Source: Saprospiraceae bacterium (lineage in GTDB: Bacteria; Bacteroidota; Bacteroidia; Chitinophagales; JAHQVX01). Taken from it: a stretch of DNA of 55,985 bases. The stretch's first letter is position 1, and every line of letters starts with the position of its first letter. The stretch is from contig JAHQVX010000054.1 of the NCBI GenBank assembly GCA_019634125.1, positions 1 through 55,985 on the forward strand, written 5' to 3'. Made by a program: the position numbers and the translations under genes. This document shows, piece by piece, positions 39,252 to 55,100 of the stretch. A model generated the notes under the pieces. The model was not told the origin of the DNA. It saw only the letters and a list, made by a program, of their open reading frames with translations, and did not search any database.

Positions 39252-39392
39252 TGTTGTTTTTTGATTGAAAGAAAAAAACAAGTCCGGAGTTTGAATTCAG
39301 TTCCAGTTACGTCCAAAAAGCTCAAGTAGTTTTCCTGCTGAAGATTTTTTTTCTCCGTTGGCTATCTTATATTTGAGCAACAAGCCCTTCTA

Positions 39393-39962: not shown

Positions 39963-40752
39963 GCAAGAATTAATAGAGTCAGGTCTCTTGGAGCTATACG
40001 CTACAGGAGCTATCAGTGCCGATGAATCGGATGCTGTTGCACATCTATTGGGGGAGGTGGACGTGAAAGCTGCTCTAGAAAACATTGAGCTTTCACTCGA
40101 ACATGCAGGTTTTGAGAACGCTGTTTCTCCACCTTCTTGGGTACTTGAAAACATTACGAAGGAGATTGCTCCATCAGATACATCCGACAAAGGACACAGC
40201 ATTTCTTTAGTAGAACGCCAACTGGAGAAATGGCGCCGCAACTTTATGGTTGCCGCATCTATTGCTGGTCTCTTAGCCTTAGGCCTAGGATGGCAATTCA
40301 CACAAAAAGGAAGTACAGGCGATACGAATTCTTCTGTACTTACTGCTAGAGTAGAGAGTTTAGAGCAAGAATTAGAAAAACTAAGAACTTCAAACTCTTC
40401 CATCAATGATCAACTGGCGTATATCAACCATACCTATACCACACCACTCGTACTAAAATCAACTCCGGTTGCACCTGGTTCGAAAGCTGTCGTGTATTGG
40501 AATCCTAAAACACCTGAGGCCTTACTCAGTACCAATGGATTGCCAGAATTACCTGATGGTAAAGTGTATCAGATATGGGCAGATATTGAAGGTGAAATGG
40601 TGAGTATGAAAGTATTTACTATGGATCAGAAATTGGTGCCACTTCCTTACATGCCTAAAGCTGAATCGTTAAATATTACGGTTGAGCCTGAAGGGGGAAG
40701 CGACCACCCGAACGTAGAACAACTATACGTGAACGGAGCCACAACGGTTTAA
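39955..40752 (+). CDS. RskA-like transmembrane anti-sigma factor
   Basis: 8-nt overlap with the sigma gene. N-terminal LLELYATGAISADESD, a single TM (MVAASIAGLLALGLGW), and a C-terminal RskA-type domain with ...VYWNPKT...KVYQIWA...ITVEPEGGS. Confidence 0.75.
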   Translation: MDKQELIESGLLELYATGAISADESDAVAHLLGEVDVKAALENIELSLEHAGFENAVSPPSWVLENITKEIAPSDTSDKGHSISLVERQLEKWRRNFMVAASIAGLLALGLGWQFTQKGSTGDTNSSVLTARVESLEQELEKLRTSNSSINDQLAYINHTYTTPLVLKSTPVAPGSKAVVYWNPKTPEALLSTNGLPELPDGKVYQIWADIEGEMVSMKVFTMDQKLVPLPYMPKAESLNITVEPEGGSDHPNVEQLYVNGATTV

Positions 40753-43539: not shown

Positions 43540-43998
43540 CTATGTTAATGTAGAGATCAGGGCAGTAGTTAACGTATCTAAATACGTAAACACAGATTCA
43601 AAATCCTTTTGACCGCCCTTGTATGGGTCAACGACCTCAGATTCATTTGAGGAGACGACAGAACTAAGCGGCTGTATCTTCTTAAATTGCCGCTCAGTTA
43701 CTGCCATCGCTCTCACCCGCGACAGATTATCTTCATCCATAGTATAGATTTGATCAAATCGATCTAGATCCGCATATTCCACTTGTCGAGCCCTCAAATC
43801 CTGTATGTCCACGTCGTTTTTCTGGGCAACGTCTATTGCCCTTGGATCTGGAGCCTTTCCAATATGCCAATGCCCCGTGCCCGCACTATCAATATAGACT
43901 GACTTACCAGATAGTGCAGCTTTTTTTCTGAGCAAGCCTTCCGCTATAGGAGATCTGCAAATATTCCCTTTACATACGATTAAAATGGATGTGTTCAT
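43540..43998 (-). CDS. low-molecular-weight protein-tyrosine phosphatase (Wzb-like; the arsenate reductase branch is less likely)
   Basis: P-loop VCKGNICRSP (CX5R-S) at the N-terminus and a DP general-acid loop (VVDPY). Confidence 0.9.
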   Translation of the reverse strand: MNTSILIVCKGNICRSPIAEGLLRKKAALSGKSVYIDSAGTGHWHIGKAPDPRAIDVAQKNDVDIQDLRARQVEYADLDRFDQIYTMDEDNLSRVRAMAVTERQFKKIQPLSSVVSSNESEVVDPYKGGQKDFESVFTYLDTLTTALISTLT

Positions 43999-44227
43999 GT
44001 GTACTAATTTTTCTCAAATGTCTTTCAACCAATTAAGAAGAATGAAGAATAAAGACCAAGCTGCAAAAAATTGAGATAAACGGTTTTTATCGCAAGAAAT
44101 AGCGCCGAATAGAGCATACAATTCCTGAATTTTTCCATTTATCGCGCTTCACCGCCAATCATCGCAATAGCTTCCATGCCGGTCGAATCTTTAAATGCTT
44201 AGCCCCAAAAAGCAGTTGCTTAGCAAC

Positions 44228-44986
44228 ATGAAAAGATCAATTCTGCTTATTGCTTTAGTATTAAACGTAAGTCTTGGGCTCGCTCAAGACTCTATCAATA
44301 TGGAGTTGAAAACCATTGAACTCAGTCATGGAAGATTAGCATTCAATAGTACGTCCATACTCCACCGAAGCACTATTAGTAGTACACTCCAAATGAATGA
44401 AACGAATCTGGGCATTCAACTTCACCATCTACAGCTCAATCAAGAAAGTGAGCAAACAATTGGTATAAACACCACACTATCGGGACAACGAACAAGTCAC
44501 CAGCTTAGTATTGCGGGTGGAGGAGATGTGTTGGCACCCAAATTCCAACTCGGATACTTTTCAACTACAAAGCGATCCGATTCATTAAGCTTTTTAGCCG
44601 GGGCGAATCTCATCTTCTTATCAGATCAGACAATAGGACTTGGTCAACAAGTTGGATGGATTCGAACTGCAAAAACACATACTCAAATCATCCGCATTTT
44701 CAATTCCAGTAATAAAGAGCAATATCTCGCACCCAATCTTCTCCTTGCATACTTGAAAGAATTTAACAGTAAAACACTCCTCCAACTCCACGCAGTAGGA
44801 GGCTATACACCTCAAAACGATCCATTATTGAAGTCTCAAACTCAAATTGGAAGTGGGGCTTGGTTACGCCAATCACTCGGAAGCCAGCTACAGATGAACT
44901 TATCTGTTAGCTATAACCATGCTTTCGAAGGCATTAGTACCAGCCAAGCCCGACTTTCTCTAGTTTATAAAATCAAAAATCAATAA
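44228..44986 (+). CDS. putative outer-membrane beta-barrel protein (YaiO-like size class)
   Basis: Signal peptide MKRSILLIALVLNVSLGLAQ (start moved from 44195). About 250 aa of alternating-hydrophobic strands and many Gln/Ser/Thr turns. First gene of the exopolymer module. Function is inferred. Confidence 0.4.
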   Translation: MKRSILLIALVLNVSLGLAQDSINMELKTIELSHGRLAFNSTSILHRSTISSTLQMNETNLGIQLHHLQLNQESEQTIGINTTLSGQRTSHQLSIAGGGDVLAPKFQLGYFSTTKRSDSLSFLAGANLIFLSDQTIGLGQQVGWIRTAKTHTQIIRIFNSSNKEQYLAPNLLLAYLKEFNSKTLLQLHAVGGYTPQNDPLLKSQTQIGSGAWLRQSLGSQLQMNLSVSYNHAFEGISTSQARLSLVYKIKNQ

Positions 44987-44987
44987 G

Positions 44988-45962
44988 ATGGACATGAATA
45001 CATATGTATTTGGTGGAAGTAACGACATTTCCATGTTGAAACTTCTCCTGAAAGAAGAACCAGCTATTACCTACATGCCCTTTAAGCAATCTATTCGACA
45101 AGGTTTACAAAAGTTAAATTGCAAAGGCATTGTAGTCTTAGCGAAACGAAGAACGATGGCCAATGCCTGCAAGTTATTAGATGCGATTAAACAATCCATC
45201 CCGAGTTGCCCAATAGTACTCATTTCAGCAATAAAAGACTCCGACTTACTCTATAAGGCGTTGAAAGTAAATTTGGTAGACCTTATTATCACCGACCAGC
45301 AACAACAAATCCTTGAAAGCGTTCGGAAGGCTTTTTTACTTATGCCTCAAAACAGTCCAAGGAAGCGCATTCTTGCGATTGGTGCCCACCCAGATGATAT
45401 TGAAATCGGTTGTGGTGGAACACTGCTCAAGCATCAAGAACAAAACCACGACATCACTATCCTTACGTTAACACAAGGAAGTAATGGTGGCAACAAAGCA
45501 AAACGGGTAGGAGAAGCCCAACGTGCCGCAGAGTTTATAAATAGCAAGCTTATTATCACGGATTTGCCAGACACTAAACTTTCTGAAGGCAACCCTACAA
45601 TTGGAATTATTCAAGACGCCATCAAGGCCAGTCGACCTGATATTATTTATACCCACAGCTTGAACGATACCCACCAAGACCATCGAGCTACTTACAATGC
45701 GACATTAGTTGCAGCGCGTTCGGTATCACAAGTATTTTCCTATTTGGCCCCCTCAACGAACGTGGCATTCACTCCAAACCATTTTGAAGTGATATGCCCG
45801 TTCATAGACCAAAAACAAACACTGATCAATTTTCATGTTTCGCAAACGCAAGGCATGGGACGCCCATACTTAACACCTTCAATTATTAAATCAACCGCAC
45901 AGTACTGGGGACGTTTTGCTAATTACTCGTACTGTGAACCTTTTGAAGTCATAAAATCGTAA
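44988..45962 (+). CDS. PIG-L/LmbE-family de-N-acetylase with an N-terminal degenerate receiver-like domain
   Basis: C-terminal domain has ILAIGAHPDDIEIGCGG and THQDH (Zn/His motifs of PIG-L/MshB/BshB). The N-terminal 120 aa or so have beta-alpha periodicity but lack the receiver Asp pocket. No signal peptide. Confidence 0.8.
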   Translation: MDMNTYVFGGSNDISMLKLLLKEEPAITYMPFKQSIRQGLQKLNCKGIVVLAKRRTMANACKLLDAIKQSIPSCPIVLISAIKDSDLLYKALKVNLVDLIITDQQQQILESVRKAFLLMPQNSPRKRILAIGAHPDDIEIGCGGTLLKHQEQNHDITILTLTQGSNGGNKAKRVGEAQRAAEFINSKLIITDLPDTKLSEGNPTIGIIQDAIKASRPDIIYTHSLNDTHQDHRATYNATLVAARSVSQVFSYLAPSTNVAFTPNHFEVICPFIDQKQTLINFHVSQTQGMGRPYLTPSIIKSTAQYWGRFANYSYCEPFEVIKS

Positions 45963-45964
45963 TC

Positions 45965-46936
45965 ATGAAAAAGACAAATGTTTTAATTACAGGTGCTGGT
46001 GGTCCAGCTGCTATTTGCGCATTCAAAGCATTAGCAAACGAAAAAAATATTGAATTATTTATGGCCGACATGAGTGCTCTGGCCAGTGGCCTATACTTAG
46101 TCCCGCCTGAAAGAAGAATGTGTATTCCTCGTGGGAATCATGAAGCCTTCGCAGATAATTTGCTAAAAAAATGCATCGAAAAGAATATTTCCATCGTATT
46201 CTCTACAGTAGATGATGAACTACTTCCTCTAGCAAAAAGAAAATCAGAATTTCAGAGGAACGGGATTCAACTATGTATTGCCGAAGAACAATCCCTCCAA
46301 ACCATTCTGAATAAGCACGCCCTATTGGAGCGCTTACAGCGAGCAGGGTTGGAAGTTGGGGCATTTGCCAAGCTAACAGAATTGGACACCACTCAATTCC
46401 CAGATACATCAATTGTAGTAAAACCCCAATCAGGGAGTGGTTCTAGAGGCGTGTGCTTTTATGACTCCTTAGACGAAATCCCCAAGCATAAGTTCAATGA
46501 CCAAGAATTAATGGTACAAGAGCAATTTCAAGGACAAGAATACAGTGTAGACATGTTCATGTTTCCATCAGGACGCATTTTAGCTTGTGTGCCGCGAATT
46601 CGAATGCGGACAGATAGCGGTGTATCTGTGACGGGTCAAGTCGTGAATAACCTTCGAGTAATCAGTTATGCCAAGGAAGTCGTGAAGATTTTAGGCCTAC
46701 CCTACGCGGCGAATGTACAAATCATGGATACTGCTGAAGGGCCAAGGCTGATCGAAATCAATCCGCGTTTCTCGGGCGGCCTGAGTTTAGTCGTTCAAGC
46801 AGGAGCAAACACACCTAAAATGGCTTTAGAGGCGATGATGGGCAAAGAAGTTCAACCTGTTTATCAATTCAATGAAGTAGGCATGGTGCGTTATTTCACA
46901 GAACACTTCACCAACGAACTAATAGCATTGTGTTAA
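45965..46936 (+). CDS. ATP-grasp ligase (CarB-like ATP-binding fold)
   Basis: VVKPQSGSGSRGV, QEQFQGQEYSVDMF and IEINPRFSGG are canonical ATP-grasp blocks. No signal peptide. Confidence 0.8.
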   Translation: MKKTNVLITGAGGPAAICAFKALANEKNIELFMADMSALASGLYLVPPERRMCIPRGNHEAFADNLLKKCIEKNISIVFSTVDDELLPLAKRKSEFQRNGIQLCIAEEQSLQTILNKHALLERLQRAGLEVGAFAKLTELDTTQFPDTSIVVKPQSGSGSRGVCFYDSLDEIPKHKFNDQELMVQEQFQGQEYSVDMFMFPSGRILACVPRIRMRTDSGVSVTGQVVNNLRVISYAKEVVKILGLPYAANVQIMDTAEGPRLIEINPRFSGGLSLVVQAGANTPKMALEAMMGKEVQPVYQFNEVGMVRYFTEHFTNELIALC

Positions 46937-48417
46937 ATGCGTTAGCCATAGTATTTACTGGCCTCGTGATTTTCAGTAGTTTACCACTCTTTACCTCGTT
47001 ATACCAGTTTTTACTGGTCGGCATTCATGGGTATAAGAACCACTACTGTAAAACGAAACCAATCACGCCAAGAGTAGCCATTATTATTCCTGCTTGGAAT
47101 GAAGGCAGTGTAATCGGAACGACCATTGAGCAGCTCTATGGCATGGACTATCCGAAAGATGCATTGCGGATTTATGTGGTAGATGATGCGAGTACAGATG
47201 ACACCCCTACGATTTGTAAAACCATGCACGAGAAATATCCAGACAATGTATTTCACCTTAGGCGGGAGAATGGTGGGCAAGGCAAGGCACATACTTTAAA
47301 CCATGGTATAGAAATCATATTAAGTGAAACCTGGGCAGAAGCGTTTTTAATCATGGACGCAGATGTTTTATTTGAAAACGATGCCCTCCGCAAGATGTCT
47401 AGACATCTTGCGGACCCCGAAGTCGGCTCCGTAACTGCATACATCAAAGAAGGAAGCAGTCCAGGCAATTATATCTCGAAATGCATTGCATTTGAGTACA
47501 TTACCGCACAAGCAGCAAGCCGGCGCGCTCAAAATATCATGGGGAAAATGGCTTGTCTAGCAGGAGGCGCCCAGCTGCACACTCGGGAAAACCTCCTCGC
47601 TATTGGAGGACGTATAGACACGTCATCCTTGGCAGAAGATACTTTTACCACATTCAACACGCAATTAAATGGCCGAAAAGCCGTCTTCGATGGCAATGCT
47701 ATTGTATGGGCTGAAGAACCCGATAATGTAGTTGGAGTTTGGAAACAACGCCTGAGATGGGCACGTGGGAATGTGCAACTTACCAAAGCATTTAAACACG
47801 TTTGGTTCAACCGGAAAAAAGGACTAAGACTCGGAAGCGCAGATTTCGGCATTTTATGGTTCGCCATTATTTTAATGCCGTTCTTTATGATTTTTGGGGC
47901 TATTGGATTAGTGGCTCTCTTCTTTATCGATTTCCCGTTGTCTTGGTTTCTCTTTAAACAATTTTGGATCTTGAACTCCATCGTCTACCTCTTCGTGACG
48001 TTGTTTTCATTTGGGATTGACCCCTTCACCGCCAAGCGATCTTGGGTTCAAGGCCTACTATTTCCAGGTCTGATTTCATTAATTATTATTGTGTTGTCAG
48101 CTATTCCAGGCTTATTAGAGCATTTATTAGCGCTTGGGAATCCACCTTCAGGTCAAACACTTACCTGGTACGCACAATTAATCGTACTGTTTATGTATAG
48201 TTGGCTAGCCCTTTGTATGCTAGTGACCTATTGGGCCTACCTTCTAGAAAAAAATTATAACTATAGGACATTAGCTAAGTGGCTAATCATTATTTCAGGA
48301 TTCGGGCCATTGCTTTGCGCAATTACGCTTCAATCCTACATTTCTGAATGGAAAAAAACCGAATTAAAATGGGACAAGACCGAGAAAAGCGGCAAGGTGA
48401 AAGTGATGAGCAGCTAG
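46930..48417 (+). CDS. processive family-2 glycosyltransferase / polysaccharide synthase (PgaC/IcaA/NodC/BcsA-like)
   Basis: N-terminal TM, then IIPAWNE, VVDDASTDDT, IMDADV (DxD), LAEDTF (ED) and QRLRWARG (QxxRW), then 4 or more C-terminal TM helices. GTG start overlaps the ATP-grasp stop by 7 nt. Confidence 0.85.
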   Translation: MLNALAIVFTGLVIFSSLPLFTSLYQFLLVGIHGYKNHYCKTKPITPRVAIIIPAWNEGSVIGTTIEQLYGMDYPKDALRIYVVDDASTDDTPTICKTMHEKYPDNVFHLRRENGGQGKAHTLNHGIEIILSETWAEAFLIMDADVLFENDALRKMSRHLADPEVGSVTAYIKEGSSPGNYISKCIAFEYITAQAASRRAQNIMGKMACLAGGAQLHTRENLLAIGGRIDTSSLAEDTFTTFNTQLNGRKAVFDGNAIVWAEEPDNVVGVWKQRLRWARGNVQLTKAFKHVWFNRKKGLRLGSADFGILWFAIILMPFFMIFGAIGLVALFFIDFPLSWFLFKQFWILNSIVYLFVTLFSFGIDPFTAKRSWVQGLLFPGLISLIIIVLSAIPGLLEHLLALGNPPSGQTLTWYAQLIVLFMYSWLALCMLVTYWAYLLEKNYNYRTLAKWLIIISGFGPLLCAITLQSYISEWKKTELKWDKTEKSGKVKVMSS

Positions 48418-48578
48418 AACAATTCTACGAAGTACTCGATAAAGATAGGAAAGAAGAACGTCGTTTATCTAAGGTACAAGTAGTCGTTTTGTTTGGGATT
48501 GGTGTAGGTGTGTTTTTGAGAGAATGGTTTTTTCCATCCAAGCTAGCTTGGATGGAATTCCTCCAACAACTATTATAA
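48369..48578 (+). CDS. possible small single-TM protein (candidate synthase accessory subunit)
   Basis: 69-aa ORF (from ATG 48369) overlapping the GT2 3' end by 49 nt in another frame. Charged N-half, then the hydrophobic segment VQVVVLFGIGVGVFL. It fills an otherwise empty 163-nt convergent gap. No homology evidence. Confidence 0.3.
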   Translation: MGQDREKRQGESDEQLEQFYEVLDKDRKEERRLSKVQVVVLFGIGVGVFLREWFFPSKLAWMEFLQQLL

Positions 48579-48580
48579 GG

Positions 48581-49282
48581 CTAGAGTAAATTCAAGGCTT
48601 CCACTAACTTCATCTTATTCGCTCGACTCACAGGAATCACCTCTTGGTTCACAAGTATACTGTTGTCCTCAATGTCTACAATCTTATGTAGGTTGACAAT
48701 ATAGCTTCTATGAATTCGCATAAATGATTTAGCAGGCAGTTTCTGTTCGATCTTCTTCATACTCGAACGAACAATATGCTGCGCTTGCTGATCCATCTTA
48801 ATCAAGGCATAATCTCCCTTGGCTTCTATCAGTGCTATCTTATCAAAAGCAAGACGTGTTAATCGTCCGTCTACATTGATGTACATGTCGGCATCTTGCT
48901 CTACCTGCACCTCGGCAGGGGTAATCCTAGTCTGTGGCTTTACCCGTTCAATGGCTTTTAAAAATCTGGGGAGCTGAATAGGCTTCACTAAATAATCCAG
49001 TGCATTCACCTCAAAAGCCTCAATGGCTTTACTCTGGTCGCCCGTCGTGAAAATCACATTTGGCGGATCTATCGTACTCTTGAAAAAATCCATGCCATTG
49101 ATCTCAGGCATATGAATGTCTAAAAAAATCAAATCAATATCCTTTCGATTATTTAAAGTAGTCAGCGCCTTGATTGGATTATCAAATTCACCAATTACTT
49201 GAAGATAGTCCACCTTACTGCAAAGTATGCTTAAATTTTTTCGTGCTACTGGATCATCATCAATAATTAAACACTTGATCAT
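48581..49282 (-). CDS. LytTR-family DNA-binding response regulator
   Basis: Receiver (LIIDDD..., FLDIHMP, DYLVKP) plus LytTR domain (FMRIHRSYIVNLHKI). ATGA overlap with the upstream gene. Confidence 0.9.
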   Translation of the reverse strand: MIKCLIIDDDPVARKNLSILCSKVDYLQVIGEFDNPIKALTTLNNRKDIDLIFLDIHMPEINGMDFFKSTIDPPNVIFTTGDQSKAIEAFEVNALDYLVKPIQLPRFLKAIERVKPQTRITPAEVQVEQDADMYINVDGRLTRLAFDKIALIEAKGDYALIKMDQQAQHIVRSSMKKIEQKLPAKSFMRIHRSYIVNLHKIVDIEDNSILVNQEVIPVSRANKMKLVEALNLL

Positions 49283-49926
49283 TTTATTCGTTTTTCAATC
49301 GTCAACAAATACAAGTCAATAGCTGCATCAACAGCCCGACTTTGAATTTCTGTTAGTGCTTGTCCATTTTGAGTTTGTAGAGCTAAGACTTCAAACAAGT
49401 CTTGCTCTTTAGGGTATCCAAAATACTTAGAATAATTCGCTAAATTATGATAAGTATAATATTGTTCAACAACCGGCACATTCATAGATACTGTTGCCTT
49501 TGCTTTTTTCAACTGCTCGTCCAAAATGACTAGCATTTCTTGAAGTTCTTCTTCTGTCTCACAGTAATCATCTAGCTGTAGCCGTGAAGCAAGCTCAGAT
49601 TCGATAGTGGGAAGCGCCTGTTCACCCAACACACCATTGAGTGCATCGAGACTTAATGGCTTGCTCAAAAAAAGAACAGCATCTTCTAAACTTGATTGGG
49701 AATGGTTACTTACGATTACAAAAGGAACTTTAAATCGGTCAACATAATCGGTCACATCATCCAAGCCAACATAATAATCAGACAAAAGGAAGTCAAAAGC
49801 CTCAGAATTCGCGAAGAAATCATCGAAATGAGAAAAAAGTTGAAGGCGCACAGATGTATTCTTGAACAAACGCCGGTAATAGGCTTGCTCTACTTTGTCG
49901 TCCTCTATAATAGCCAGTTTTAGCAT
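49279..49926 (-). CDS. receiver domain protein with a C-terminal helical HPt-like domain
   Basis: Start at MLKLAIIEDD (TAATG overlap with the upstream RR stop). Receiver residues: EDD pocket, LLSDYYV, VIVSN, LSKPL. The C-terminal 100 aa or so are helical, with HNLANYSKYFG partly matching the HPt motif HxLKGSSxxLG. Confidence 0.6.
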   Translation of the reverse strand: MLKLAIIEDDKVEQAYYRRLFKNTSVRLQLFSHFDDFFANSEAFDFLLSDYYVGLDDVTDYVDRFKVPFVIVSNHSQSSLEDAVLFLSKPLSLDALNGVLGEQALPTIESELASRLQLDDYCETEEELQEMLVILDEQLKKAKATVSMNVPVVEQYYTYHNLANYSKYFGYPKEQDLFEVLALQTQNGQALTEIQSRAVDAAIDLYLLTIEKRIK

Positions 49927-50339
49927 TAAGCCACACTTTGACTCGTCATCCAATATTGGGTAATCAGTTGTATCGTGTCTTGATACTGTACGTTGGAATT
50001 GGGTTTCACTATATATCCAGCGGCTTGTAATAAGTGCGCTTGTTCAATATCCTTTGGGTTTTTTGAAGTCGTTAGAATAACAACTGGAATTCGCTTCAAA
50101 TAATGATCTTGTTTGACCAATTCCAGTAACTCAAGGCCATTCATCAGTGGCATATTCAAATCAAGGATAATCAGCTGAGGTGGAGCATGTTTGTTGGACT
50201 CCAACCATTTCAGAGCTTCAGACCCATCATTAAAGCTTTCAATGCTCAATTCGGGATTATCACTTTTTTTCAGGGCACGCTCAAACTTCTTGTGCTCCAG
50301 AAAATCGTCGTCTACAAATAAAATCGTTTTCTTGTCCAT
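49926..50339 (-). CDS. single-domain CheY-like response regulator
   Basis: 137 aa. ILFVDDD, LIILDLNMP, VVILTTS and GYIVKP. Confidence 0.9.
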   Translation of the reverse strand: MDKKTILFVDDDFLEHKKFERALKKSDNPELSIESFNDGSEALKWLESNKHAPPQLIILDLNMPLMNGLELLELVKQDHYLKRIPVVILTTSKNPKDIEQAHLLQAAGYIVKPNSNVQYQDTIQLITQYWMTSQSVA

Positions 50340-51541
50340 TACAGTTTTGTGTGTTGTTTGTTTAGGGAAAATGTGAACGTAGTACCTTGTCCTTCTTTAG
50401 AATCGACGATAATCGTACCTCCATAATGCTCACAGATTTTTTTCACGATCGCAAGTCCAACACCTGTTCCTTTCGTCTGTTCATTCAACGTTGAGAACAT
50501 GGTAAATATCTTGTCGAAATATTTAGCGGGAATTCCAATGCCATTATCTTGTACAGAAAACAAATAATGACTGGAGGTTTCCCAAGATTTCACCAGAATT
50601 TTCACTACGTCTTTGTCGTTATACTTCACGCCATTCGTGAGTAGATTTTGAAAGATATGTTGAAGTTGTGATCGAGCTATTTTTAATACCGGGAAGTCAC
50701 CCTCTAAACTCAATTGAAATTGCTGAGGTACATCGATCATCTCAGATACATATTTAACTAAAGCTTTCGTGTCAACTTCTGTTTCTGTATTTTCGGTTCC
50801 TACCTGCGCATACTCTAAAATTCCATCGATTAAACTGAATGCCTTTCCTATTCTACTTTCTATCTCTTGAAGGTGTTCTAATGCCTCTCCTTTAAAGGCT
50901 TCAGCATGATCTTCTTTTAACCAACCTACTAATGTATTCACAGCTCTCAATGGCGATTTTAGATCATGAGAAACCACTTGAGCAAAGGCATCTAATTCTT
51001 TATTCTGACTTTGAAGCGTTTGAATTAAGGTGGCTTGCTTCTCTTCGGCTTCTACTAGAAACTGAATATCCTCAATAATGGCTAAATGGTAGCGCGTGCT
51101 CCCGTCTTGGTTCAAGACGGGAGAAACTTTTGTTTTAGCCCAAAACAGGCTGCCATCCTTCCTTCTATAGCGTTTTCGCAACTCAAACTGATCGACTTGT
51201 TGAGCGATCAATGCATTGGTGAGCTGGTACGATTTCGATACATCTTCTTTATAAGTGAGGTCTTTAATGGTTAACGCTTTCAGTTCTTCCACTGCATAAC
51301 CCATCATTTCGCCAAACTTGGAGTTCACCGTTTTAATATCGCCATTACTGGTTAATGCAATTCCAAACACGGCATTTTCAAACAAATGAATCAAATCCGA
51401 TTCTAGTTCGCCGTTCAGTTGTTCTAACTTCTGGTTATTCTGATAGAGTTCAAGAGATTTCTCTTCTAGAATCCGCTCTGCTTCTTGCCGAGCAGCGATT
51501 TCTCTCTGAAGTTTTTTCTCCAATAACTCTATGGCCTCCAT
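50339..51541 (-). CDS. cytoplasmic PAS-domain sensor histidine kinase (HnoK-like by context)
   Basis: N-terminal coiled coil, PAS domain, H-box VSHDLKSPL, N/G boxes LLTNGVKY, DNGIGI and GTGVGLAIVKK. No TM segment. Start lies 2 nt after the H-NOX stop. Confidence 0.9.
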   Translation of the reverse strand: MEAIELLEKKLQREIAARQEAERILEEKSLELYQNNQKLEQLNGELESDLIHLFENAVFGIALTSNGDIKTVNSKFGEMMGYAVEELKALTIKDLTYKEDVSKSYQLTNALIAQQVDQFELRKRYRRKDGSLFWAKTKVSPVLNQDGSTRYHLAIIEDIQFLVEAEEKQATLIQTLQSQNKELDAFAQVVSHDLKSPLRAVNTLVGWLKEDHAEAFKGEALEHLQEIESRIGKAFSLIDGILEYAQVGTENTETEVDTKALVKYVSEMIDVPQQFQLSLEGDFPVLKIARSQLQHIFQNLLTNGVKYNDKDVVKILVKSWETSSHYLFSVQDNGIGIPAKYFDKIFTMFSTLNEQTKGTGVGLAIVKKICEHYGGTIIVDSKEGQGTTFTFSLNKQHTKL

Positions 51542-51543
51542 GC

Positions 51544-52083
51544 TTATTTTTTACTGATGGTAAATCTTACTTTACTTCCATCTTCTTCGATAAACTCTTT
51601 GTCTAACCGAAACGCCTCATTGTAATGTTCCATTGTAGCTTCAATGAGTCCCTCAGCTAGGGCATACATTTTCTTACTACTCGTATAAACCATATCCATA
51701 CTGCCATCTGGATGATCAATAGTTGCGAAATGAGGCAAGTCGGCATCAGGATAAATCTTCCGTACTTCCACATGAATGTAGTCATGTACGCCACTTAGGA
51801 AGGAAAAACTATCGCTGCTATTCTCAAATAATGCTGGATAAGAAGCTACAAATGTTTGGAGTAAGTGCTTTCCAAAAGCCTTAATGAGTGCATTGGCATC
51901 CGTATCGGTACGTTGACTTAACGCGCCTACAAGTCGGTAAATCTCTTTGTGATCATACGTGCCGACTTTGGTATAAGCGCCATGATTAGGCAGTTGCGCA
52001 TCGTCAATAATGTTTTGAACCATTTCTAATCCGAAATGCGTTTCCACCATATCAAACAACTCGGTAAATACTATTCCTTTCAT
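51544..52083 (-). CDS. H-NOX (heme nitric oxide/oxygen-binding) sensor protein
   Basis: 179 aa from MKGIVFTELFDMV. Collinear with remembered bacterial H-NOX proteins (MKGIIFNVLEDMV..., ...IHDVIHLEVNKLY...). Candidate proximal His in GVHDYIHVEV. The propionate-binding motif is present as YTSSK, where the canonical form is YxSxR. Confidence 0.85.
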   Translation of the reverse strand: MKGIVFTELFDMVETHFGLEMVQNIIDDAQLPNHGAYTKVGTYDHKEIYRLVGALSQRTDTDANALIKAFGKHLLQTFVASYPALFENSSDSFSFLSGVHDYIHVEVRKIYPDADLPHFATIDHPDGSMDMVYTSSKKMYALAEGLIEATMEHYNEAFRLDKEFIEEDGSKVRFTISKK

Positions 52084-52174
52084 AATTGTATACAAACTAC
52101 GTACATAAAACACGCCAAATGCGTCTTATGCGACGAATGGTAAATATCTTGAGATGAATGGAAATATTGAGCGA

Positions 52175-55100
52175 TTATTGGTTTGGCTGCTGCAAATCAA
52201 ACACCTCATAAATGGCTTCTTGGATTTGCGGCCGGATATCTTCTGTGATCAGCTTTTTATTATCCATAGTTGGGTGTACTCGGTTAGACAGGAAAATGAA
52301 GATGAGGTTGTTTTCAGGATCTGCCCAGGCACATGTTCCGGTAAAGCCAGTATGACCGAAAGCTGAAGCAGGCGTACTCTCGCTCGTCGGGCCAATTTTA
52401 TTGCGGTCGGTTTCAGGCTTGTCAAAGCCTAAACCACGGCGACTTTTCTGGCTGTAACGCCGAGTAAAATACTCAATCGTACTGGGTTCAAAATACTTTT
52501 GCCCACCGTACGTGCCTTTATTTAAAAGCATTTGCATGTAAATAGCTAAGTCGTTGGCGTTGCTAAAGACACCTGCATGACCACCGACTCCATCTTGCAT
52601 AGCTGCACCCATATCGTGTACATAACCATGTACAAGCTGATTCCGCCAATACTCGTCTTTCTCTGTGGGAACAATCTTATTCAATGGAAAACGCTTTGTT
52701 GGATTATAGCCCATTGTACTCATACCTAAAGGCTGGTAAAACGTTCGTTCGACAAACTCTTCCAGCGGCTGACTATACTGTTCTTCCAACATGTGTTGAA
52801 AGAGATAGTACCCTAAGTCGCTGTATACATAACGACCTCGCGGATTATTGTCGGCTTTCAAGATCTTCATCATCATTGAATCCTTGGGATAATTGGACTG
52901 CAAGTACATGCCTTTTGCAATCTCAATGTCTTTGCCCGAACTTTTAGTTCGGGCATATAGGTTGTTCAACTTCCCGTCTTCGGTCAATGTCGACGTGTAG
53001 AACGGAATCCAACTTTTCAGCCCTGAAGTGTGGTTTAATACCTCGGCAATTTTCATATTGGCCTTATTGGAGCCTTTCGTGATGAATAAGTGCTGCTGCA
53101 GTTGATCTTCCGGATGAAACACCCCACGCTCATAGCCAAACATCAACGCTGGCAAGGTGGATGAAATTTTCGTAATCGAAGCCACATCATATACATCGTT
53201 GAGTTGCACCCGACGCTTCCTCGAATACGTATGATGTCCAAATGCTTTATGATATACGATTTTATTGTCTTTAGCGACTAGGAGCTGACAGCCCGGCGTG
53301 GCTTTAATGGAGATAGCTGCTTTGGCAATAGAATCCAGCTTATAAAACGCATGATCTTCTAGGCCAATTTCGTAGGGCTGTGCGTGTTTAATGCGCATGT
53401 TACCCGTTGTAATATTGCCGTAGTTGACCGGTAGATACCCGGCTGCCACCGGCAGCCGGCCTTCAAAGCCAATCACACCCATAATGGCTTCAGCGGCGGC
53501 TTTCTGAGCCTCGGCTGCGCCATCGTACCCGCAGATGACCGTGCGGTAATTCACAAAGTTTTCAATACTGTACGGATTGCCAAATACCGACAACACCAAC
53601 TTATTCTGATCGTTGAGCTGACGTAAAAATGTTTTTGTGGCTAACGAAATACCGTAGCCCCTAGAACTGTAGCGGCTTTGGTTCACCAGACCCACCAGCA
53701 CCATATTGTAGCCTTCCAAGCGCTTGAGCAAGTTGTTATAGCTCACTTCCGAGTCCGAAGCACTGACCGAAAAATGCGTCATGGGGGCATAGTTGTCTAA
53801 GGTCGACTGGAAGGGCGTTAGCTTGCCGTCATTAATGCTTACCGTAGCGATTTTGAGCTTGCTCAAATCGCTTAATGGCAGCTTTAAATCATCGTTTTTC
53901 ACCAAGGTAATCGACTTTTCATGAAGTTGCTGCTTCAACAACTTCACCGACCCTTGATTAATATCATCTGTAACATGTTGCGGATTTGATGTAGCTACAT
54001 TCTCGAGGATTCCCAACCATCTTTTAGCATAAAGGATCTTCCGAACACTGGCATCGATACGACTTTCGGTGATTTCCCCCGTTTGCAATGCCGATTTAAT
54101 CGCTTGAAACGCTTTCGGTACATCTACAGAGAAGAGTAAAATATCATTACCGGCTTTTATGGCTTCCACTTCGATAGTGCCAGGAGGAAAGGTATTGGTT
54201 ACGCCTTTCATATTCAGGGCGTCGGTAATGATTAAGCCATCAAAGCCCATTTCATTGCGTAAAACACCAGTTACGATGGGCGTAGATAAGGTAGACGGGC
54301 GATTTGGTGACGGATCAAGGGCTGGAATATTCAAATGGGCAATCATCATAGCCCCAAGTCGGTTCTCAATCATTTGCCGAAAAGGATAGAACTCTAGACT
54401 ATCTATGCGTCGCCGGTCGTGGTTAATTTGCGGCAATGTGAGGTGACTGTCTTTATCGGTATCTCCATGACCGGGAAAGTGCTTGGCAGTTGCCAATACG
54501 CCCGCATCGTGCAGGCCGCGCATGTAGGCCGTTCCTTTATTGGCTACTTGAAACATATTCTCCCCAAAGCTTCGGTCGTTAATTACGGGATTGTTGGGGT
54601 TGTTGTTCACATCTACGACGGGGGCGAAGTTCATGTGAATGCCCATGCGCTTGCATTGACGGCCAATTTCAAAGCCCATATTGTAGATGTATTGATCATC
54701 CTGAATCGCGCCCAGCGTCAGCTGGCGCGGAAACTGCACCGTACTATCTAAACGCATATCCAAGCCCCACTCTGCATCAATGGAGACCATGAGTGGAATA
54801 CGTGCTTGCGCTTGTAAGTCATTGGTGAATGCTACTTGTTGCGTAGGCGATGATGTTTTTTTACTGTCGCGAAACAAGGCCACACCACCTAGATGATAGT
54901 CTTTCACTAAAGCCTTGGCCCGCTTGACTTCCGCCGGTCCTTTATTGGTGTAGACGGCACTCATGAAGAGCTGACCAATTTTCTCTTCCACCGTCATTTC
55001 TGCCAGCTTCGTCTCCACCTCAATACTGGCCGACTCTAGTGCTTGAACAGGTTTGGATTTCTTTTTGGGCACATCTAAGGCCGCATAAATCGGCGTGTTC

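What the first reader, a model, noticed from the sequence alone, without database searches (positions are those of the whole stretch)
44228..48578. Uncharacterised exopolymer module: beta-barrel OMP + pseudo-receiver::PIG-L deacetylase + ATP-grasp ligase + processive GT2 synthase
Seen:
- Four co-oriented ORFs are packed with +1, +2 and -7 nt junctions.
- The first is a signal-peptide protein of about 250 aa with beta-strand periodicity.
- The second is a PIG-L/LmbE de-N-acetylase (AHPDDIEIG, HQDH).
- The third is an ATP-grasp enzyme (KPQSGSGSRGV, EINPRFSGG).
- The fourth is a multi-TM GT2 with the D / DxD / ED / QxxRW motifs of PgaC/IcaA/NodC/BcsA-type synthases.

Established:
- Such synthases polymerise and translocate HexNAc or Glc polymers.
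- PIG-L enzymes (MshB, BshB) de-N-acetylate GlcNAc conjugates.
- In the mycothiol and bacillithiol pathways, the freed amine is then acylated by a separate cysteine-adding enzyme (ATP-dependent MshC in the mycothiol pathway).

Inference:
- The module may graft that 'transfer, deacetylate, re-acylate' logic onto a PNAG-like synthase/porin system. The product would be a HexN-containing polymer, or a primer or donor, that carries an amide-linked amino-acyl or carboxylate substituent.
- Neither the deacetylase nor the ligase has a signal peptide. That differs from the periplasmic or extracellular CE4 deacetylases PgaB and IcaB.
- I know of no characterised system with this composition.
Basis: partly seen in the sequence, partly recalled or inferred. 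Interest (0 to 1): 0.85.

Follow-up and report, generated by a model that had tools for sequence, protein, structure and literature searches.

The report
Uncharacterised glycan synthase operon with cytoplasmic sugar editing
The four genes are real and are part of a larger gene cluster conserved across at least seven bacterial phyla: a PgaC-like membrane sugar synthase travels with a cytoplasmic N-deacetylase, an ATP-dependent ligase, a phosphatase and an outer-membrane protein, and I found no published function for it.

Summary
Observation confirmed. Four co-oriented ORFs (44228-48417) have +1, +2 and -7 nt junctions, and every quoted motif is present.

The module is larger than reported:
- a small single-TM ORF follows the GT2 (48369-48578);
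- a divergent LMW-PTP phosphatase lies upstream (43540-43998);
- a convergent H-NOX/PAS-kinase/REC/LytTR relay lies downstream (48581-52113).

Of 48 loci holding an ortholog of the REC::PIG-L protein, 44 carry the ATP-grasp, 41 the GT2 ortholog (55-65% identical across phyla) and 41 a phosphatase. The phosphatase comes from three unrelated families. Diderm loci add a TPR-plus-beta-rich protein or a YaiO/ORF1-like protein; Actinomycetota have none.

The GT2 models confidently (pLDDT 91.5). It matches BcsA, hyaluronan, chitin and cellulose synthases, and is nearest PgaC/IcaA by profile, far below cut-off.

The receiver is canonical outside Bacteroidota and degenerate in this clade.

The ORF1 structure prediction failed. 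The barrel assignment rests on weak profile evidence only.

E. coli yaiS-yaiP-yaiX-yaiO is a distant, uncharacterised analogue.

Best reading (confidence about 0.5): a signal-regulated, synthase-type secretion system for a hexosamine glycan whose N-acetyl group is replaced in the cytoplasm. A glycolipid pathway is the main rival. Novelty: new variant of a known kind.

The parts
43540..43998 (-). Low-molecular-weight phosphotyrosine-phosphatase-family protein (CX5RS and DPY motifs), divergent from the operon. It is one of three unrelated phosphatase families that recur in this cluster.
   Evidence: PF01451, 7.6e-35. Wzb-like, below cut-off. An LMWPc gene is present in L001, L002/3, L086-089, L114-116 and L119. 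It is replaced by a PHP phosphatase in Actinomycetota, Gemmatimonadota, Polyangiaceae and L121, and by His_Phos_1 in L118, L028 and L059.
43999..44227 (.). Divergent intergenic (promoter) region. It contains the exact 10-mer AGATAAACGG at 44074-44083.
   Evidence: This is the only exact copy in the window. The same 10-mer occurs twice, 21 bp apart, in the equivalent intergenic region of L001. It is a candidate binding site for the adjacent LytTR regulator. This is inference only.
44228..44986 (+). ORF1: secreted, beta-rich protein of 252 aa. Putative small outer-membrane barrel, possibly YaiO-like.
   Evidence: Signal-peptide-like N-terminus MKRSILLIALVLNVSLGLAQ. No Pfam or NCBIfam hit. Only one homolog among 1.8 billion cluster representatives. 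Positional orthologs exist in L001, L086/87, L114, L115 and L116. The family profile against YaiO-family proteins of sister clusters gives hhalign probability 76%, E 2.3e-5. Weak OMP_b-brl, YaiO and YjbH hits in family members. Beta periodicity z = 4.1. AlphaFold failed, pLDDT 28.
44988..45962 (+). ORF2: degenerate (pseudo) receiver domain, residues about 1-120, fused to a PIG-L/LmbE-family de-N-acetylase. Cytoplasmic.
   Evidence: PF02585, 3e-27. Metal and catalytic motifs AHPDD and HQDH are invariant in 27 homologs. The phospho-acceptor Asp and the Lys are absent in the Bacteroidota clade and present elsewhere. More than 2,400 homologs at E <= 1e-5. 36% identical to E. coli YaiS, E 6e-28.
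45965..46936 (+). ORF3: ATP-grasp ligase of the PylC-like / 'CPSase-like PRK12767' type. Cytoplasmic.
   Evidence: PF15632 4.9e-28, PF02655 9.5e-15, PF21360 1.2e-11. NF009405 scores 179.5 bits against a 390 cut-off. PDB 2pn1, 3.6e-23; from memory that structure has no assigned function. Adjacent to the PIG-L gene in 44 of 48 loci.
46930..48417 (+). ORF4: integral-membrane GT2 with the cellulose/hyaluronan/chitin/PNAG-synthase fold.
   Evidence: Pfam and NCBIfam hits. AlphaFold pLDDT 91.5, pTM 0.90. Foldseek hits: PcManGT, BcsA, HAS, CesA, Chs. 26% identical to E. coli PgaC with an identical WKQRLRWA motif. 55-79% identical to homologs from other phyla. Invariant residues include many aromatic and charged residues in the TM region and a C-terminal W-D-K-T-x-K-x-G motif.
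48369..48578 (+). ORF5: small single-TM protein of about 69 aa. Its first 49 nt overlap the GT2 stop region in another frame.
   Evidence: A 46-83 aa ORF follows the GT2 in L001, L002, L004, L087-089, L114-116 and L118, aligned. One TM-like segment at residues 32-55. Caveat: its conserved MGQDRE start is the alternative frame of the GT2's invariant KWDKTEK. Only the downstream TM helix and the RE..FPS motif are independent evidence.
48581..49282 (-). REC + LytTR DNA-binding response regulator, convergent on the operon, 2 nt from ORF5.
   Evidence: PF00072 2e-19, PF04397 9e-20. A LytTR regulator is present next to the cluster in L001, L086/87, L089, L114, L115, L116 and L121.
49279..49953 (-). 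Conserved 224-aa protein with no family hit. The N-terminus looks receiver-like and the C-terminus is helical with a conserved His. Possibly a phosphotransfer protein.
   Evidence: No Pfam hit. Orthologs sit in the same position in L001 (33% identity, 2e-32) and L114 (28%, 9e-14). The function is guessed from the alignment only.
49926..50339 (-). Single-domain receiver protein.
   Evidence: PF00072, 6e-21.
50339..51541 (-). Cytoplasmic PAS histidine kinase.
   Evidence: PAS, HisKA and HATPase_c domains.
51544..52113 (-). H-NOX (haem NO/O2-binding) sensor protein, directly upstream of the kinase.
   Evidence: PF07700, 1e-39. An H-NOX gene is also next to the cluster in Marinicella (L002/3), Kangiella (L119), L086/87, L114 and L116.

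Best explanation
The window carries one member of a widespread, conserved and apparently unstudied envelope-glycan system.

Shown:
- A PgaC-like integral-membrane GT2 is encoded together with a cytoplasmic PIG-L de-N-acetylase, a cytoplasmic ATP-grasp ligase, a small single-TM ORF and a phosphatase.
- In diderm bacteria an outer-membrane protein is added. Here it is the ORF1/YaiO-like protein; elsewhere it is a TPR protein with a beta-rich C-terminal domain.

Inferred mechanism:
- The GT2, probably with the small TM protein, polymerises a HexNAc-derived sugar from a nucleotide donor and threads it across the inner membrane.
- The outer-membrane protein lets the product cross the outer membrane.
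- In the cytoplasm, PIG-L removes the N-acetyl group from a HexNAc unit. That unit could be the donor, a primer or the nascent non-reducing end.
- The ATP-grasp then uses ATP to put a different acyl group, most likely an amino acid or hydroxy/dicarboxylic acid, on the freed amine.
- The phosphatase usually sits next to the ATP-grasp and comes from interchangeable families. It probably removes a phosphate carried by one of these intermediates.

Regulation:
- In most phyla a phosphorylatable receiver domain is fused to the deacetylase, which suggests that deacetylation is the controlled step.
- In this Bacteroidota clade the receiver is degenerate. Control is then probably transcriptional, through the adjacent H-NOX / kinase / LytTR relay, which would make production NO-responsive.
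For: Module conservation:
- Of 48 loci, 44 have the ATP-grasp, 41 the GT2 ortholog and 41 a phosphatase.
- Loci come from Bacteroidota, Gamma- and Betaproteobacteria, Myxococcota, Gemmatimonadota and Actinomycetota. Homologs from Acidobacteriota and Rhodothermia-like bacteria are also listed.
- Legionella rowbothamii has just GT2, TPR protein, ATP-grasp and REC::PIG-L, set between housekeeping genes.

Synthase class:
-.
- The TM region and C-terminal tail are highly conserved, with many invariant Trp/Phe/Tyr residues.

Active deacetylase: AHPDD and HQDH are invariant.

Cytoplasmic location of ORF2 and ORF3.

Outer-membrane partner restricted to diderms. YaiO-family proteins lie in sister clusters.

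Re-acylation logic:
- E. coli yaiS (PIG-L, 36% identical) - yaiP (GT2) - yaiX (acyltransferase) - yaiO (outer-membrane protein) has an acyltransferase where this cluster has an ATP-grasp.
- The tunicamycin cluster also pairs an LmbE deacetylase with an N-acyltransferase and a phosphatase (gene list in PMC7143919).

HexNAc substrate: a related actinomycete cluster adds a UDP-GlcNAc 2-epimerase.

Phosphatase as a real component: four unrelated families (LMW-PTP, PHP, His_Phos_1, HAD) occupy the cluster.

Regulation: canonical against degenerate receivers; neighbouring H-NOX, kinase and LytTR genes.
Against: - No product is known, and nothing here shows a polymer.
- The best PDB match is a mannosyltransferase of N-glycan biosynthesis (6yv7); from memory it is not processive. 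The GT2 also passes Pfam GT21, a family that from memory includes lipid glycosyltransferases with a QxxRW-type motif.
- Characterised PIG-L enzymes act on small glycosides or lipid-linked GlcNAc, not on polymers (established knowledge of MshB, BshB, PIG-L).
- From memory, in characterised synthases of this fold the chain leaves the cytoplasm as it grows. Cytoplasmic editing of a polymer would then be topologically awkward, and a donor or primer has to be invoked.
- The role of the phosphatase is unexplained by simple deacetylate/re-acylate chemistry.
- ORF1 is not shown to be a barrel. No sequence link was found to the TPR proteins' C-terminal domains.
- One locus (L121) has ATP-grasp, PHP and GT2 but no PIG-L within 8 kb. 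Five REC::PIG-L loci lack the partners.
Confidence: 0.5

Rival explanations
1. Glycolipid or membrane-anchored glycoconjugate pathway, with logic like GPI anchors or hopanoid glucosamine. The GT2 adds one or a few HexNAc residues to a membrane lipid at the cytoplasmic face. PIG-L de-N-acetylates it, as PIG-L does with GlcNAc-PI. The ATP-grasp aminoacylates the GlcN. The phosphatase trims a phosphorylated lipid head group. The outer-membrane protein helps display the lipid on the surface.
For: - The GT2 passes Pfam GT21 (51 bits against a 21.7 cut-off). It gives sub-threshold hits to HpnB and HpnI.
- The best PDB match is a mannosyltransferase of N-glycan biosynthesis with the same fold.
- The founding PIG-L function is deacetylation of a lipid-linked GlcNAc on the cytoplasmic face (established knowledge).
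- Both editing enzymes are cytoplasmic.
- The TPR parts of the outer-membrane partners pass the TPR_Slam model (49.7 and 51.4 bits against a 35.2 cut-off). Slam proteins move lipidated cargo to the surface (from memory).
- A small-molecule-type phosphatase recurs.
Against: - No flippase or lipid-transport gene is conserved in the cluster.
- The closest characterised family by profile is PgaC/IcaA, with an identical QxxRW helix.
- The six or so TM helices are very highly conserved and rich in invariant aromatic residues. That looks more like a sugar channel than an anchor.
- A TPR protein with an outer-membrane domain is the usual partner of synthase-dependent polysaccharide export (PgaA, BcsC, AlgK/E, PelB; established knowledge).
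Confidence: 0.2
2. Nod-factor-like signal. The GT2 makes a short HexNAc oligomer that is released in the cytoplasm. PIG-L deacetylates its non-reducing end (the NodB role). The ATP-grasp N-acylates it (the NodA role). The product is then exported as a diffusible or surface signal.
For: - NodC is among the better family hits (73 bits, below cut-off).
- The order 'synthase, cytoplasmic deacetylase, N-acylating enzyme' is exactly the NodC/NodB/NodA logic (established knowledge).
- This reading removes the topological problem of editing a polymer from the cytoplasm.
Against: - No NodIJ-type ABC exporter or any other inner-membrane exporter is conserved.
- The GT2 has more C-terminal TM helices than E. 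coli PgaC.
- NodC scores 73 bits against a 550 cut-off.
- An outer-membrane TPR protein is not part of Nod systems (from memory).
Confidence: 0.1
3. Soluble small-molecule pathway of the mycothiol/bacillithiol type. A glycosyltransferase, a phosphatase, a PIG-L deacetylase and an ATP-dependent ligase together make an aminoacyl-GlcN glycoside, such as a thiol or a compatible solute.
For: - The four enzyme activities (GT, phosphatase, PIG-L, ATP-dependent ligase) mirror MshA, MshA2, MshB and MshC (established knowledge).
- BshB1 is the best NCBIfam hit of the deacetylase (82.8 bits).
- Phosphatases of small-molecule type, including a HAD enzyme in the related cluster, recur.
Against: - All thiol-pathway models are far below cut-off.
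- The transferase is a multi-TM GT2. From memory, MshA and BshA are soluble GT4 enzymes.
- A conserved small TM protein and, in diderms only, an outer-membrane protein accompany it.
- The ligase is an ATP-grasp enzyme. From memory, MshC is related to Cys-tRNA synthetase and BshC belongs to neither family.
Confidence: 0.07
4. An ordinary PNAG (pga/ica) or cellulose operon that merely looks unusual.
For: PgaC_IcaA is the best family model (6e-36). The QxxRW helix is identical to that of PgaC.
Against: - The score is 124 bits against the 422 cut-off. Identity to E. coli PgaC is only 26%.
- No Pfam or NCBIfam search of the cluster proteins returned a CE4 deacetylase, a PgaD-like protein or a PilZ or GGDEF domain.
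- ORF1 matched no Pfam or NCBIfam model; I did not compare it directly with PgaA.
- PIG-L, ATP-grasp and phosphatase genes are not part of the E. coli pgaABCD operon.
Confidence: 0.03

Closest known systems
PgaABCD / IcaADBC poly-beta-1,6-GlcNAc (PNAG) systems
   Same: - Integral-membrane GT2 synthase with D, DxD, ED and an identical WKQRLRWA motif. It is the best family-profile hit.
- A small TM protein is encoded right after the synthase, as PgaD is.
- Diderms have an outer-membrane partner, often fused to TPR repeats, as PgaA is.
- De-N-acetylation is part of the system.
   Different: - Only 26% identity, and 124 bits against the 422 cut-off.
- The deacetylase is a cytoplasmic PIG-L enzyme, often receiver-fused. 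From memory, PgaB and IcaB are periplasmic or extracellular CE4 enzymes.
- It adds an ATP-grasp ligase and a phosphatase.
- The synthase has extra C-terminal TM helices and a conserved tail.
- The outer-membrane domain is only about 220-250 aa, much shorter than PgaA.
- No c-di-GMP element was detected. Control is by two-component proteins.
E. coli K-12 yaiS-yaiP-yaiX-yaiO (uncharacterised)
   Same: - PIG-L deacetylase YaiS is 36% identical to the window enzyme, E 6e-28. That pairwise score is stronger than its match to any solved PIG-L structure.
- YaiP is a multi-TM GT2, 25% identical, with a W-R-R-W-R-R-W motif.
- YaiX is an N-acylating-type enzyme in the slot of the ATP-grasp.
- YaiO is an outer-membrane protein. 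YaiO-family proteins sit in sister Bacteroidota clusters.
   Different: - An acyltransferase stands in for the ATP-grasp. From memory it is acyl-CoA dependent.
- No receiver, no phosphatase and no small TM ORF after the GT2 are annotated.
- yaiX is broken by IS2 in K-12.
- ORF1 shows no detectable similarity to E. coli YaiO itself.
- No function is published in the searched library, so this is a parallel, not an explanation.
NodC / NodB / NodA lipo-chitooligosaccharide synthesis
   Same: Membrane GT2 of the same superfamily, then a cytoplasmic de-N-acetylase, then N-acylation of the freed amine (established knowledge). NodC gives a sub-threshold hit.
   Different: - From memory, NodB is a CE4 enzyme and NodA an acyl-ACP transferase.
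- Nod export uses the NodIJ ABC transporter (from memory). None is present here.
- Here there is an outer-membrane partner and a phosphatase.
Mycothiol / bacillithiol biosynthesis (MshA-A2-B-C, BshA-B-C) and GPI-anchor PIG-A/PIG-L
   Same: A PIG-L-family deacetylase acts on a GlcNAc glycoside. In thiol pathways an ATP-dependent ligation to the amine follows. A phosphatase step exists in mycothiol synthesis (established knowledge).
   Different: - All equivalog models are failed by wide margins.
- The transferase is a membrane synthase-type GT2. From memory, MshA, BshA and PIG-A are GT4 enzymes.
- The ligase family differs.
- The system includes envelope components.
Caulobacter holdfast modification (HfsH deacetylase, HfsK N-acyltransferase) and the tunicamycin TunE/TunC pair
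   Same: De-N-acetylation followed by re-acylation of an amino sugar, carried out in the cytoplasm. In holdfast the acylating enzyme is under second-messenger control. The holdfast details are from memory. The tun gene functions are as listed in PMC7143919.
   Different: Holdfast uses a Wzy-type pathway with CE4 and GNAT enzymes. Tunicamycin is a nucleoside antibiotic. Neither uses an ATP-grasp or a synthase-type GT2.

Membership tests
PNAG synthase PgaC/IcaA (TIGR03937) | Score at or above the curated equivalog cut-off (422.3 bits) | tested here: not met
   124.2 bits, E 6.4e-36. 26% identity to E. coli PgaC.
pga/ica-type PNAG system | Periplasmic or extracellular CE4 de-N-acetylase (PgaB/IcaB) encoded in the operon | tested here: not met
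   No CE4 domain came back from the Pfam or NCBIfam searches of the cluster's proteins. The only deacetylase is a PIG-L enzyme with no signal peptide or TM segment.
Membrane-integrated processive GT2 synthases (BcsA/CesA, HAS, Chs, NodC, PgaC) | GT-A domain with D, DxD, (T/A)ED and QxxRW motifs, fused to a TM bundle of the cellulose-synthase fold | tested here: met
   The motifs are invariant in 37 homologs. AlphaFold pLDDT 91.5. Foldseek probability 1.00 to BcsA, HAS, CesA and Chs, TM-score about 0.5-0.6.
Membrane-integrated processive GT2 synthases (BcsA/CesA, HAS, Chs, NodC, PgaC) | Processive elongation coupled to translocation of the product | not testable with these tools
   This needs enzymology. 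Note that the top structural hit, PcManGT (6yv7), shares the fold and, from memory, is not processive.
PIG-L / LmbE de-N-acetylases (PF02585) | Pfam gathering score, plus the AHPDD and HxDH metal and catalytic motifs | tested here: met
   96.1 bits against a 28.2 cut-off. H134, D137, H229, D231 and H232 are invariant.
Bacillithiol / mycothiol deacetylases (BshB1, BshB2, MshB, Mca) | Equivalog cut-offs of 182.5, 195.25, 224.35 and 277.15 bits | tested here: not met
   82.8, 24.9, 19.7 and 19.7 bits respectively.
Response-regulator receiver domain (PF00072) | Acidic pocket, phospho-acceptor Asp, conserved Thr/Ser and Lys | tested here: not met
   The window protein has G/G, L, S and T at these positions, and no Pfam hit. 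All 16 homologs of the non-Bacteroidota type that I aligned meet all of them.
ATP-grasp superfamily | Pfam ATP-grasp models above the gathering score | tested here: met
   PF15632 98 bits against 29.1. PF02655 55.5 bits against 23.2. PylC-like_N 45.1 bits against 27. No characterised equivalog is met: NF009405 scores 179.5 against 390, and PylC 14.8 against 248.
YaiO-family outer-membrane beta-barrel (PF19413 / TIGR04390) | Family model above cut-off, or a predicted beta-barrel fold | tested here: inconclusive
   - Window ORF1 has no hit.
- Its ortholog in L001 scores 17.7 bits against 23.9.
- The ORF1 family profile against cluster-linked YaiO-family proteins gives hhalign 76%, E 2.3e-5.
- Against E. 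coli YaiO itself there is no match.
- The structure prediction was uninformative, pLDDT 28.
Synthase-dependent exopolysaccharide secretion systems (general) | Inner-membrane synthase plus, in diderms, a TPR protein and an outer-membrane porin encoded together | tested here: inconclusive
   The synthase criterion is met. TPR proteins with beta-rich C-terminal domains are encoded in the proteobacterial, myxobacterial and Gemmatimonadota clusters. In this window there is only the short ORF1, with no TPR and no proven barrel.

The most novel reading that the evidence does not exclude
A previously unrecognised family of synthase-type secretion systems spanning many phyla. It makes a hexosamine polymer whose N-acetyl groups are swapped in the cytoplasm for an ATP-grasp-installed amino-acyl or carboxy-acyl group. 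Output is gated directly by phosphorylation of a receiver domain fused to the deacetylase. In marine Bacteroidota and Gammaproteobacteria it is wired to an H-NOX nitric-oxide sensor. This would be a new matrix polymer chemistry and a new way of controlling exopolysaccharide production that does not use c-di-GMP.
Probability: 0.35. Interest if true: 0.85.

Novelty: new variant of a known kind. Interest (0 to 1): 0.72.

Why it matters
Only a handful of synthase-dependent polysaccharide systems are understood: cellulose, PNAG, alginate, Pel and hyaluronan. Each became a major topic in biofilm and host-interaction biology.

This cluster has thousands of homologs. It occurs in soil Actinomycetota, marine Bacteroidota, Legionella, Paraburkholderia symbionts, Acidobacteriota and Gemmatimonadota. 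I found no paper about it.

If the product is an N-re-acylated hexosamine polymer, it would be a new biopolymer chemistry, either cationic or zwitterionic. It would also make an enzyme pair (PIG-L plus ATP-grasp) available for glycan engineering.

The receiver-fused deacetylase would be an unusual case of a two-component system switching a sugar-modifying enzyme directly rather than through transcription.

The physical link to H-NOX gives a concrete, testable output for nitric-oxide sensing in bacteria.

It would also give a first functional lead for the E. coli orphan genes yaiS, yaiP, yaiX and yaiO.

Tried and rejected
ORF1 dead ends:
- The word-index homology search found only the protein itself.
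- An exhaustive HMMER search of 1.8 billion representatives found one relative.
- AlphaFold with that 2-sequence alignment failed (pLDDT 28), so no fold search was possible.
- Comparison with the TPR proteins gave nothing: BLASTP and hhalign against six aligned C-terminal domains. The YaiO pair against those domains also gave nothing.
- The 4-member ORF1 profile against YaiO gave nothing. Only the 7-member profile gave a signal.
- A PDB profile search gave only an insignificant VDAC hit (E 2.2).

Other searches that yielded little:
- The metagenome scan with the window PIG-L protein returned almost no close relatives.
It returned mainly Actinomycetota, not the window's own clade.
- Single-linkage clustering of locus ORFs was spoiled by spurious long ORFs in high-GC DNA. 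I used the targeted phmmer tables instead.
- The sigma-70 promoter and terminator scan was uninformative: fewer promoter-like sites than in shuffles.

Literature:
- No paper in the library combines PIG-L or LmbE with ATP-grasp.
- Nothing useful came from H-NOX plus polysaccharide terms.
- yaiO/P/S appear only in gene lists.

Ideas considered and dropped:
- The phosphatase as a Wzb/CpsB-type tyrosine phosphatase partner of a BY-kinase. No such kinase is in the clusters. The PHP proteins resemble YcdX and histidinol-phosphatase types, and a HAD enzyme fills the slot in the related cluster.
- The phosphatase as a phosphatase of the receiver. It persists where the receiver has lost its Asp.
- The conserved MGQDRE start of ORF5 as independent evidence of coding. 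It is the alternative reading frame of the GT2's invariant KWDKTEK.

Full report

Yes. The ORF listing gives four co-oriented ORFs:
- ORF1 44195/44228..44986
- ORF2 44988..45962
- ORF3 45965..46936
- ORF4 46930..48417

They are separated by 1 nt and 2 nt and overlap by 7 nt, exactly as reported. All quoted motifs are in the translations. Pfam and NCBIfam confirm a PIG-L de-N-acetylase domain in ORF2 (residues 129-242), an ATP-grasp in ORF3 and a GT2 in ORF4. ORF1 matches nothing.

ORF2 and ORF3 have no hydrophobic segment. ORF4 has an N-terminal hydrophobic stretch and five or six C-terminal TM-like segments.

The N-terminal 120 residues of ORF2 align with receiver domains. They lack the phospho-acceptor Asp and the conserved Lys. 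So do all 11 sequences of this Bacteroidota-type clade that I aligned. All 16 sequences from other lineages keep every key residue. 'Pseudo-receiver' is therefore right for this window. For the family as a whole, the ancestral state looks like a working receiver.

**2. The module is bigger than four genes.**

An ORF of 46-83 aa with one TM helix follows the GT2 in ten other loci from four lineages (alignment).

One caution applies. Its conserved MGQDRE start is simply the other reading frame of the GT2's invariant C-terminal KWDKTEK. Only the downstream TM helix and the RE..FPS motif count as independent evidence.

Upstream and divergent lies an LMW-PTP-family phosphatase (43540..43998). Downstream and convergent lie five genes:
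- a LytTR response regulator;
- a conserved 224-aa protein with no family hit;
- a single-domain receiver;
- a PAS histidine kinase;
- an H-NOX protein.

**3. Conservation elsewhere.**

The REC::PIG-L protein has more than 2,400 homologs at E <= 1e-5. I collected loci through gene look-ups and one scan of species-representative genomes. I searched their ORFs with the window proteins.

Of 48 loci with an ortholog (E < 1e-45) and at least 4 kb on both sides:
- 44 have the ATP-grasp;
- 41 have a GT2 ortholog at E < 1e-100;
- 41 have a phosphatase.

The sample contains a few near-duplicate loci and is not random, so these are indicative counts.

The phosphatase family varies by lineage:
- LMW-PTP in Bacteroidota, Marinicella and Kangiella.
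- A YcdX/HisJ-like PHP enzyme in Actinomycetota, Gemmatimonadota, Polyangiaceae and a Rhodothermia-like contig.
- His_Phos_1 in Paraburkholderia bonniea, Legionella drozanskii and Ottowia.

Three unrelated phosphatase families in one slot, usually right after the ATP-grasp, argue that a phosphatase step belongs to the pathway.

Diderm loci add an outer-membrane candidate:
- A TPR protein of 414-1034 aa with a beta-rich C-terminal 220 aa, in Proteobacteria, Myxococcota and Gemmatimonadota.
- A bona fide YaiO-family protein in Dysgonomonas and one other Bacteroidota contig.
- An ORF1-like protein in the window's closer relatives.

Actinomycetota loci have none. That is what one expects if this component serves outer-membrane passage.

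Legionella rowbothamii carries only GT2, TPR protein, ATP-grasp and REC::PIG-L, inserted between housekeeping genes.

**4. The synthase.**

The GT2 is strikingly conserved, at 55-65% identity between Bacteroidota, Proteobacteria, Acidobacteriota and Actinomycetota. Invariant residues lie in the catalytic motifs. There are also many invariant Trp, Phe, Tyr, Asp and Glu residues in the TM region and a C-terminal W-D-K-T-x-K-x-G tail.

AlphaFold with 37 sequences gave pLDDT 91.5 and pTM 0.90. Foldseek against the PDB returned the membrane synthase class only: PcManGT, BcsA, Chlorella-virus and Xenopus hyaluronan synthases, plant CesA and chitin synthases, all at probability 1.00.

The nearest characterised family by profile is PgaC/IcaA, at 124 bits against a 422 cut-off. 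The alignment with E. coli PgaC shows 26% identity and an identical WKQRLRWA helix. The window protein has two further C-terminal TM helices.

So the GT2 does not group with ordinary soluble GT2s. Two facts keep processivity unproven. The top PDB hit, PcManGT, is a mannosyltransferase of N-glycan biosynthesis and, from memory, is not processive. The protein also passes Pfam GT21, a family that from memory includes lipid glycosyltransferases with a QxxRW-type motif.

**5. ORF1.**

This is the weakest part. ORF1 evolves fast. Only one relative was found among 1.8 billion representatives, and structure prediction failed (pLDDT 28).

Using positional orthologs from six other loci, I built a 7-member family.
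- It shows significant period-2 amphipathicity (z = 4.1).
- Members give weak OMP_b-brl, YaiO or YjbH hits.
- It gives a moderate profile match to the YaiO-family proteins of the sister clusters (hhalign 76%, E 2.3e-5 over 153 columns).
- It does not match E. coli YaiO itself.
- It does not match the C-terminal domains of the TPR proteins.

'Secreted beta-rich protein, probably a small outer-membrane barrel' is a fair description. 'Beta-barrel OMP' is not yet shown.

**6. What the editing enzymes might do.**

The PIG-L catalytic residues are invariant, so the enzyme should be an active amidohydrolase. It fails every thiol-pathway equivalog.

Its closest named relative that I could find is E. 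coli YaiS (36% identity, E 6e-28). yaiS sits in an operon with yaiP (a multi-TM GT2, 25% identical), yaiX (an acyltransferase broken by IS2) and yaiO (an outer-membrane protein). The parallel is the best indirect support for 'remove the acetyl, put on another acyl'. No function for the yai genes appears in the searched literature.

The same pairing, an LmbE-family deacetylase with an N-acyltransferase and a phosphatase, is listed for the tunicamycin cluster (PMC7143919). From established knowledge, LpxC/LpxD, NodB/NodA and PurD show three things. Deacetylate/re-acylate steps occur on cytoplasmic sugar intermediates. ATP-grasp enzymes can acylate a sugar amine with an amino acid.

A related actinomycete cluster (Amycolatopsis, L045) combines PIG-L, a 491-aa GT2, an ATP-grasp, a UDP-GlcNAc 2-epimerase and a HAD phosphatase. 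This points to a UDP-HexNAc-derived substrate and gives a fourth phosphatase family.

**7. Most likely mechanism.**

- Shown: the gene set, its conservation, the folds and motifs, and the cytoplasmic or membrane locations inferred from sequence.
- Inferred: the GT2, with the small TM protein, makes and translocates a HexNAc-derived glycan, and the outer-membrane protein exports it.
- Inferred: PIG-L and the ATP-grasp replace N-acetyl by another acyl group on a cytoplasmic form of the sugar (donor, primer or nascent end).
- Inferred: the phosphatase removes a phosphate from an intermediate, possibly from a phosphorylated acid that the ligase installs.
- Inferred: phosphorylation of the fused receiver switches the deacetylase in most lineages.
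- Inferred: in this clade the dead receiver is compensated by transcriptional control through H-NOX, kinase, receiver and LytTR.

The exact 10-mer AGATAAACGG occurs once in the window, in the divergent promoter region. It occurs twice, 21 bp apart, in the same region of the 59%-identical relative L001. This is a candidate LytTR site and no more than a lead.

I put about 0.5 on this reading. The main rival is a GPI- or hopanoid-like glycolipid pathway (0.2). It fits the cytoplasmic PIG-L, the GT21 hit and the phosphatase better. It lacks a flippase and fits the PgaC-like synthase and its TPR partner less well. A Nod-factor-like oligosaccharide (0.1), a soluble thiol-like metabolite (0.07) and plain PNAG (0.03) follow.

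**8. Exceptions and open points.**

- Five REC::PIG-L loci lack the partners (L019, L024, L037, L040, L042).
- Three Leifsonia loci have the ATP-grasp and PHP but no detected GT2.
- L121 has ATP-grasp, PHP and GT2 but no PIG-L within 8 kb.
- The role of the phosphatase is unresolved.
- The acyl group is unknown.
- Nothing here shows a polymer.

**9. Novelty and verdict.**

In the searchable library, no paper combines PIG-L or LmbE with ATP-grasp. None describes these genes next to H-NOX.

The system shares the architecture of synthase-dependent exopolysaccharide machines. It differs in three ways: a cytoplasmic deacetylase/ligase/phosphatase set, a receiver-gated enzyme, and a short outer-membrane component. 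I classify it as a new variant of a known kind, with a real chance that its product chemistry is new.

Noticed in passing
window 48369-48417: The small ORF after the GT2 starts 49 nt inside the GT2 gene. Its conserved N-terminus MGQDRE is the alternative reading frame of the GT2's invariant C-terminal KWDKTEK. The same roughly 46-49 nt overlap is seen in L087, L089, L114, L115 and L116. This could be translational coupling. It could also mean that the true start lies further downstream.
   Followed up: partly
window 44074-44083; L001 3098-3107 and 3119-3128: The exact 10-mer AGATAAACGG occurs once in the 56-kb window, in the divergent promoter region of the operon. It occurs twice, 21 bp apart, in the equivalent region of L001. 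Looser copies (AGATAAATC, AGATAAGCA) are in L114. The 21-bp spacing would suit a LytTR-type regulator.
   Followed up: partly
L117 (E. coli K-12 NC_000913.3 380069-384616): The orphan genes yaiS (PIG-L), yaiP (GT2), yaiX (acyltransferase, split by IS2) and yaiO (outer-membrane protein) form a distant analogue of this module. I found no published function for them.
   Followed up: partly
L045 9986-16461 (Amycolatopsis pigmentata); similar in L044, L047, L050, L053, L060, L062, L064, L076: A second cluster type in actinomycetes. It has a PIG-L enzyme without a receiver, a 491-aa GT2 (E about 1e-25 to the window's), an ATP-grasp, a UDP-GlcNAc 2-epimerase and a HAD phosphatase. Adjacent PIG-L and ATP-grasp genes also occur in archaeal contigs (L046, L049, L069).
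   Followed up: partly
L121 6091-9614: A Rhodothermia-like contig has ATP-grasp, PHP and GT2, with a PAS kinase and a LytTR regulator, but no PIG-L gene within 8 kb on either side (tblastn found nothing).
   Followed up: partly
window 49279-49953; L001 8344-9015; L114 8641-9282: A conserved 213-224 aa protein with no family hit lies between the LytTR regulator and the single receiver. Its N-terminus looks receiver-like (IEDD, LLSD, KPL). Its C-terminal helical part has a conserved YHN motif. It is possibly a receiver-phosphotransfer fusion in a multi-step relay.
   Followed up: partly
window 52175-55213 (- strand): A 1012-aa secreted fusion of a GH3 glycosidase domain (2.7e-86) and a beta-lactamase-family serine hydrolase domain (3.4e-42) lies just beyond the H-NOX gene. 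It may be cell-wall recycling. It is not present in the related loci I looked at.
   Followed up: no
L118 5812-6818 (Paraburkholderia bonniea): Here the cluster's phosphatase is a His_Phos_1 protein encoded next to a free-standing Hpt protein. SixA-type His_Phos_1 enzymes dephosphorylate Hpt domains (from memory). In this lineage the phosphatase could therefore be regulatory rather than metabolic.
   Followed up: no
L086 10326-11363: A receiver fused to a nucleotide cyclase domain (PF00211) sits beside the cluster in one Bacteroidota metagenome contig, together with two LytTR regulators and an H-NOX hybrid kinase.
   Followed up: no
L019, L024, L037, L040, L042: Five loci have a clear REC::PIG-L ortholog but no ATP-grasp or GT2 ortholog within about 10 kb. 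I did not examine their neighbourhoods.
   Followed up: no
window 38685-40752: A fasciclin-domain protein, an ECF sigma factor and an RskA-type anti-sigma factor lie a few kb upstream of the module. They are not conserved with it.
   Followed up: no
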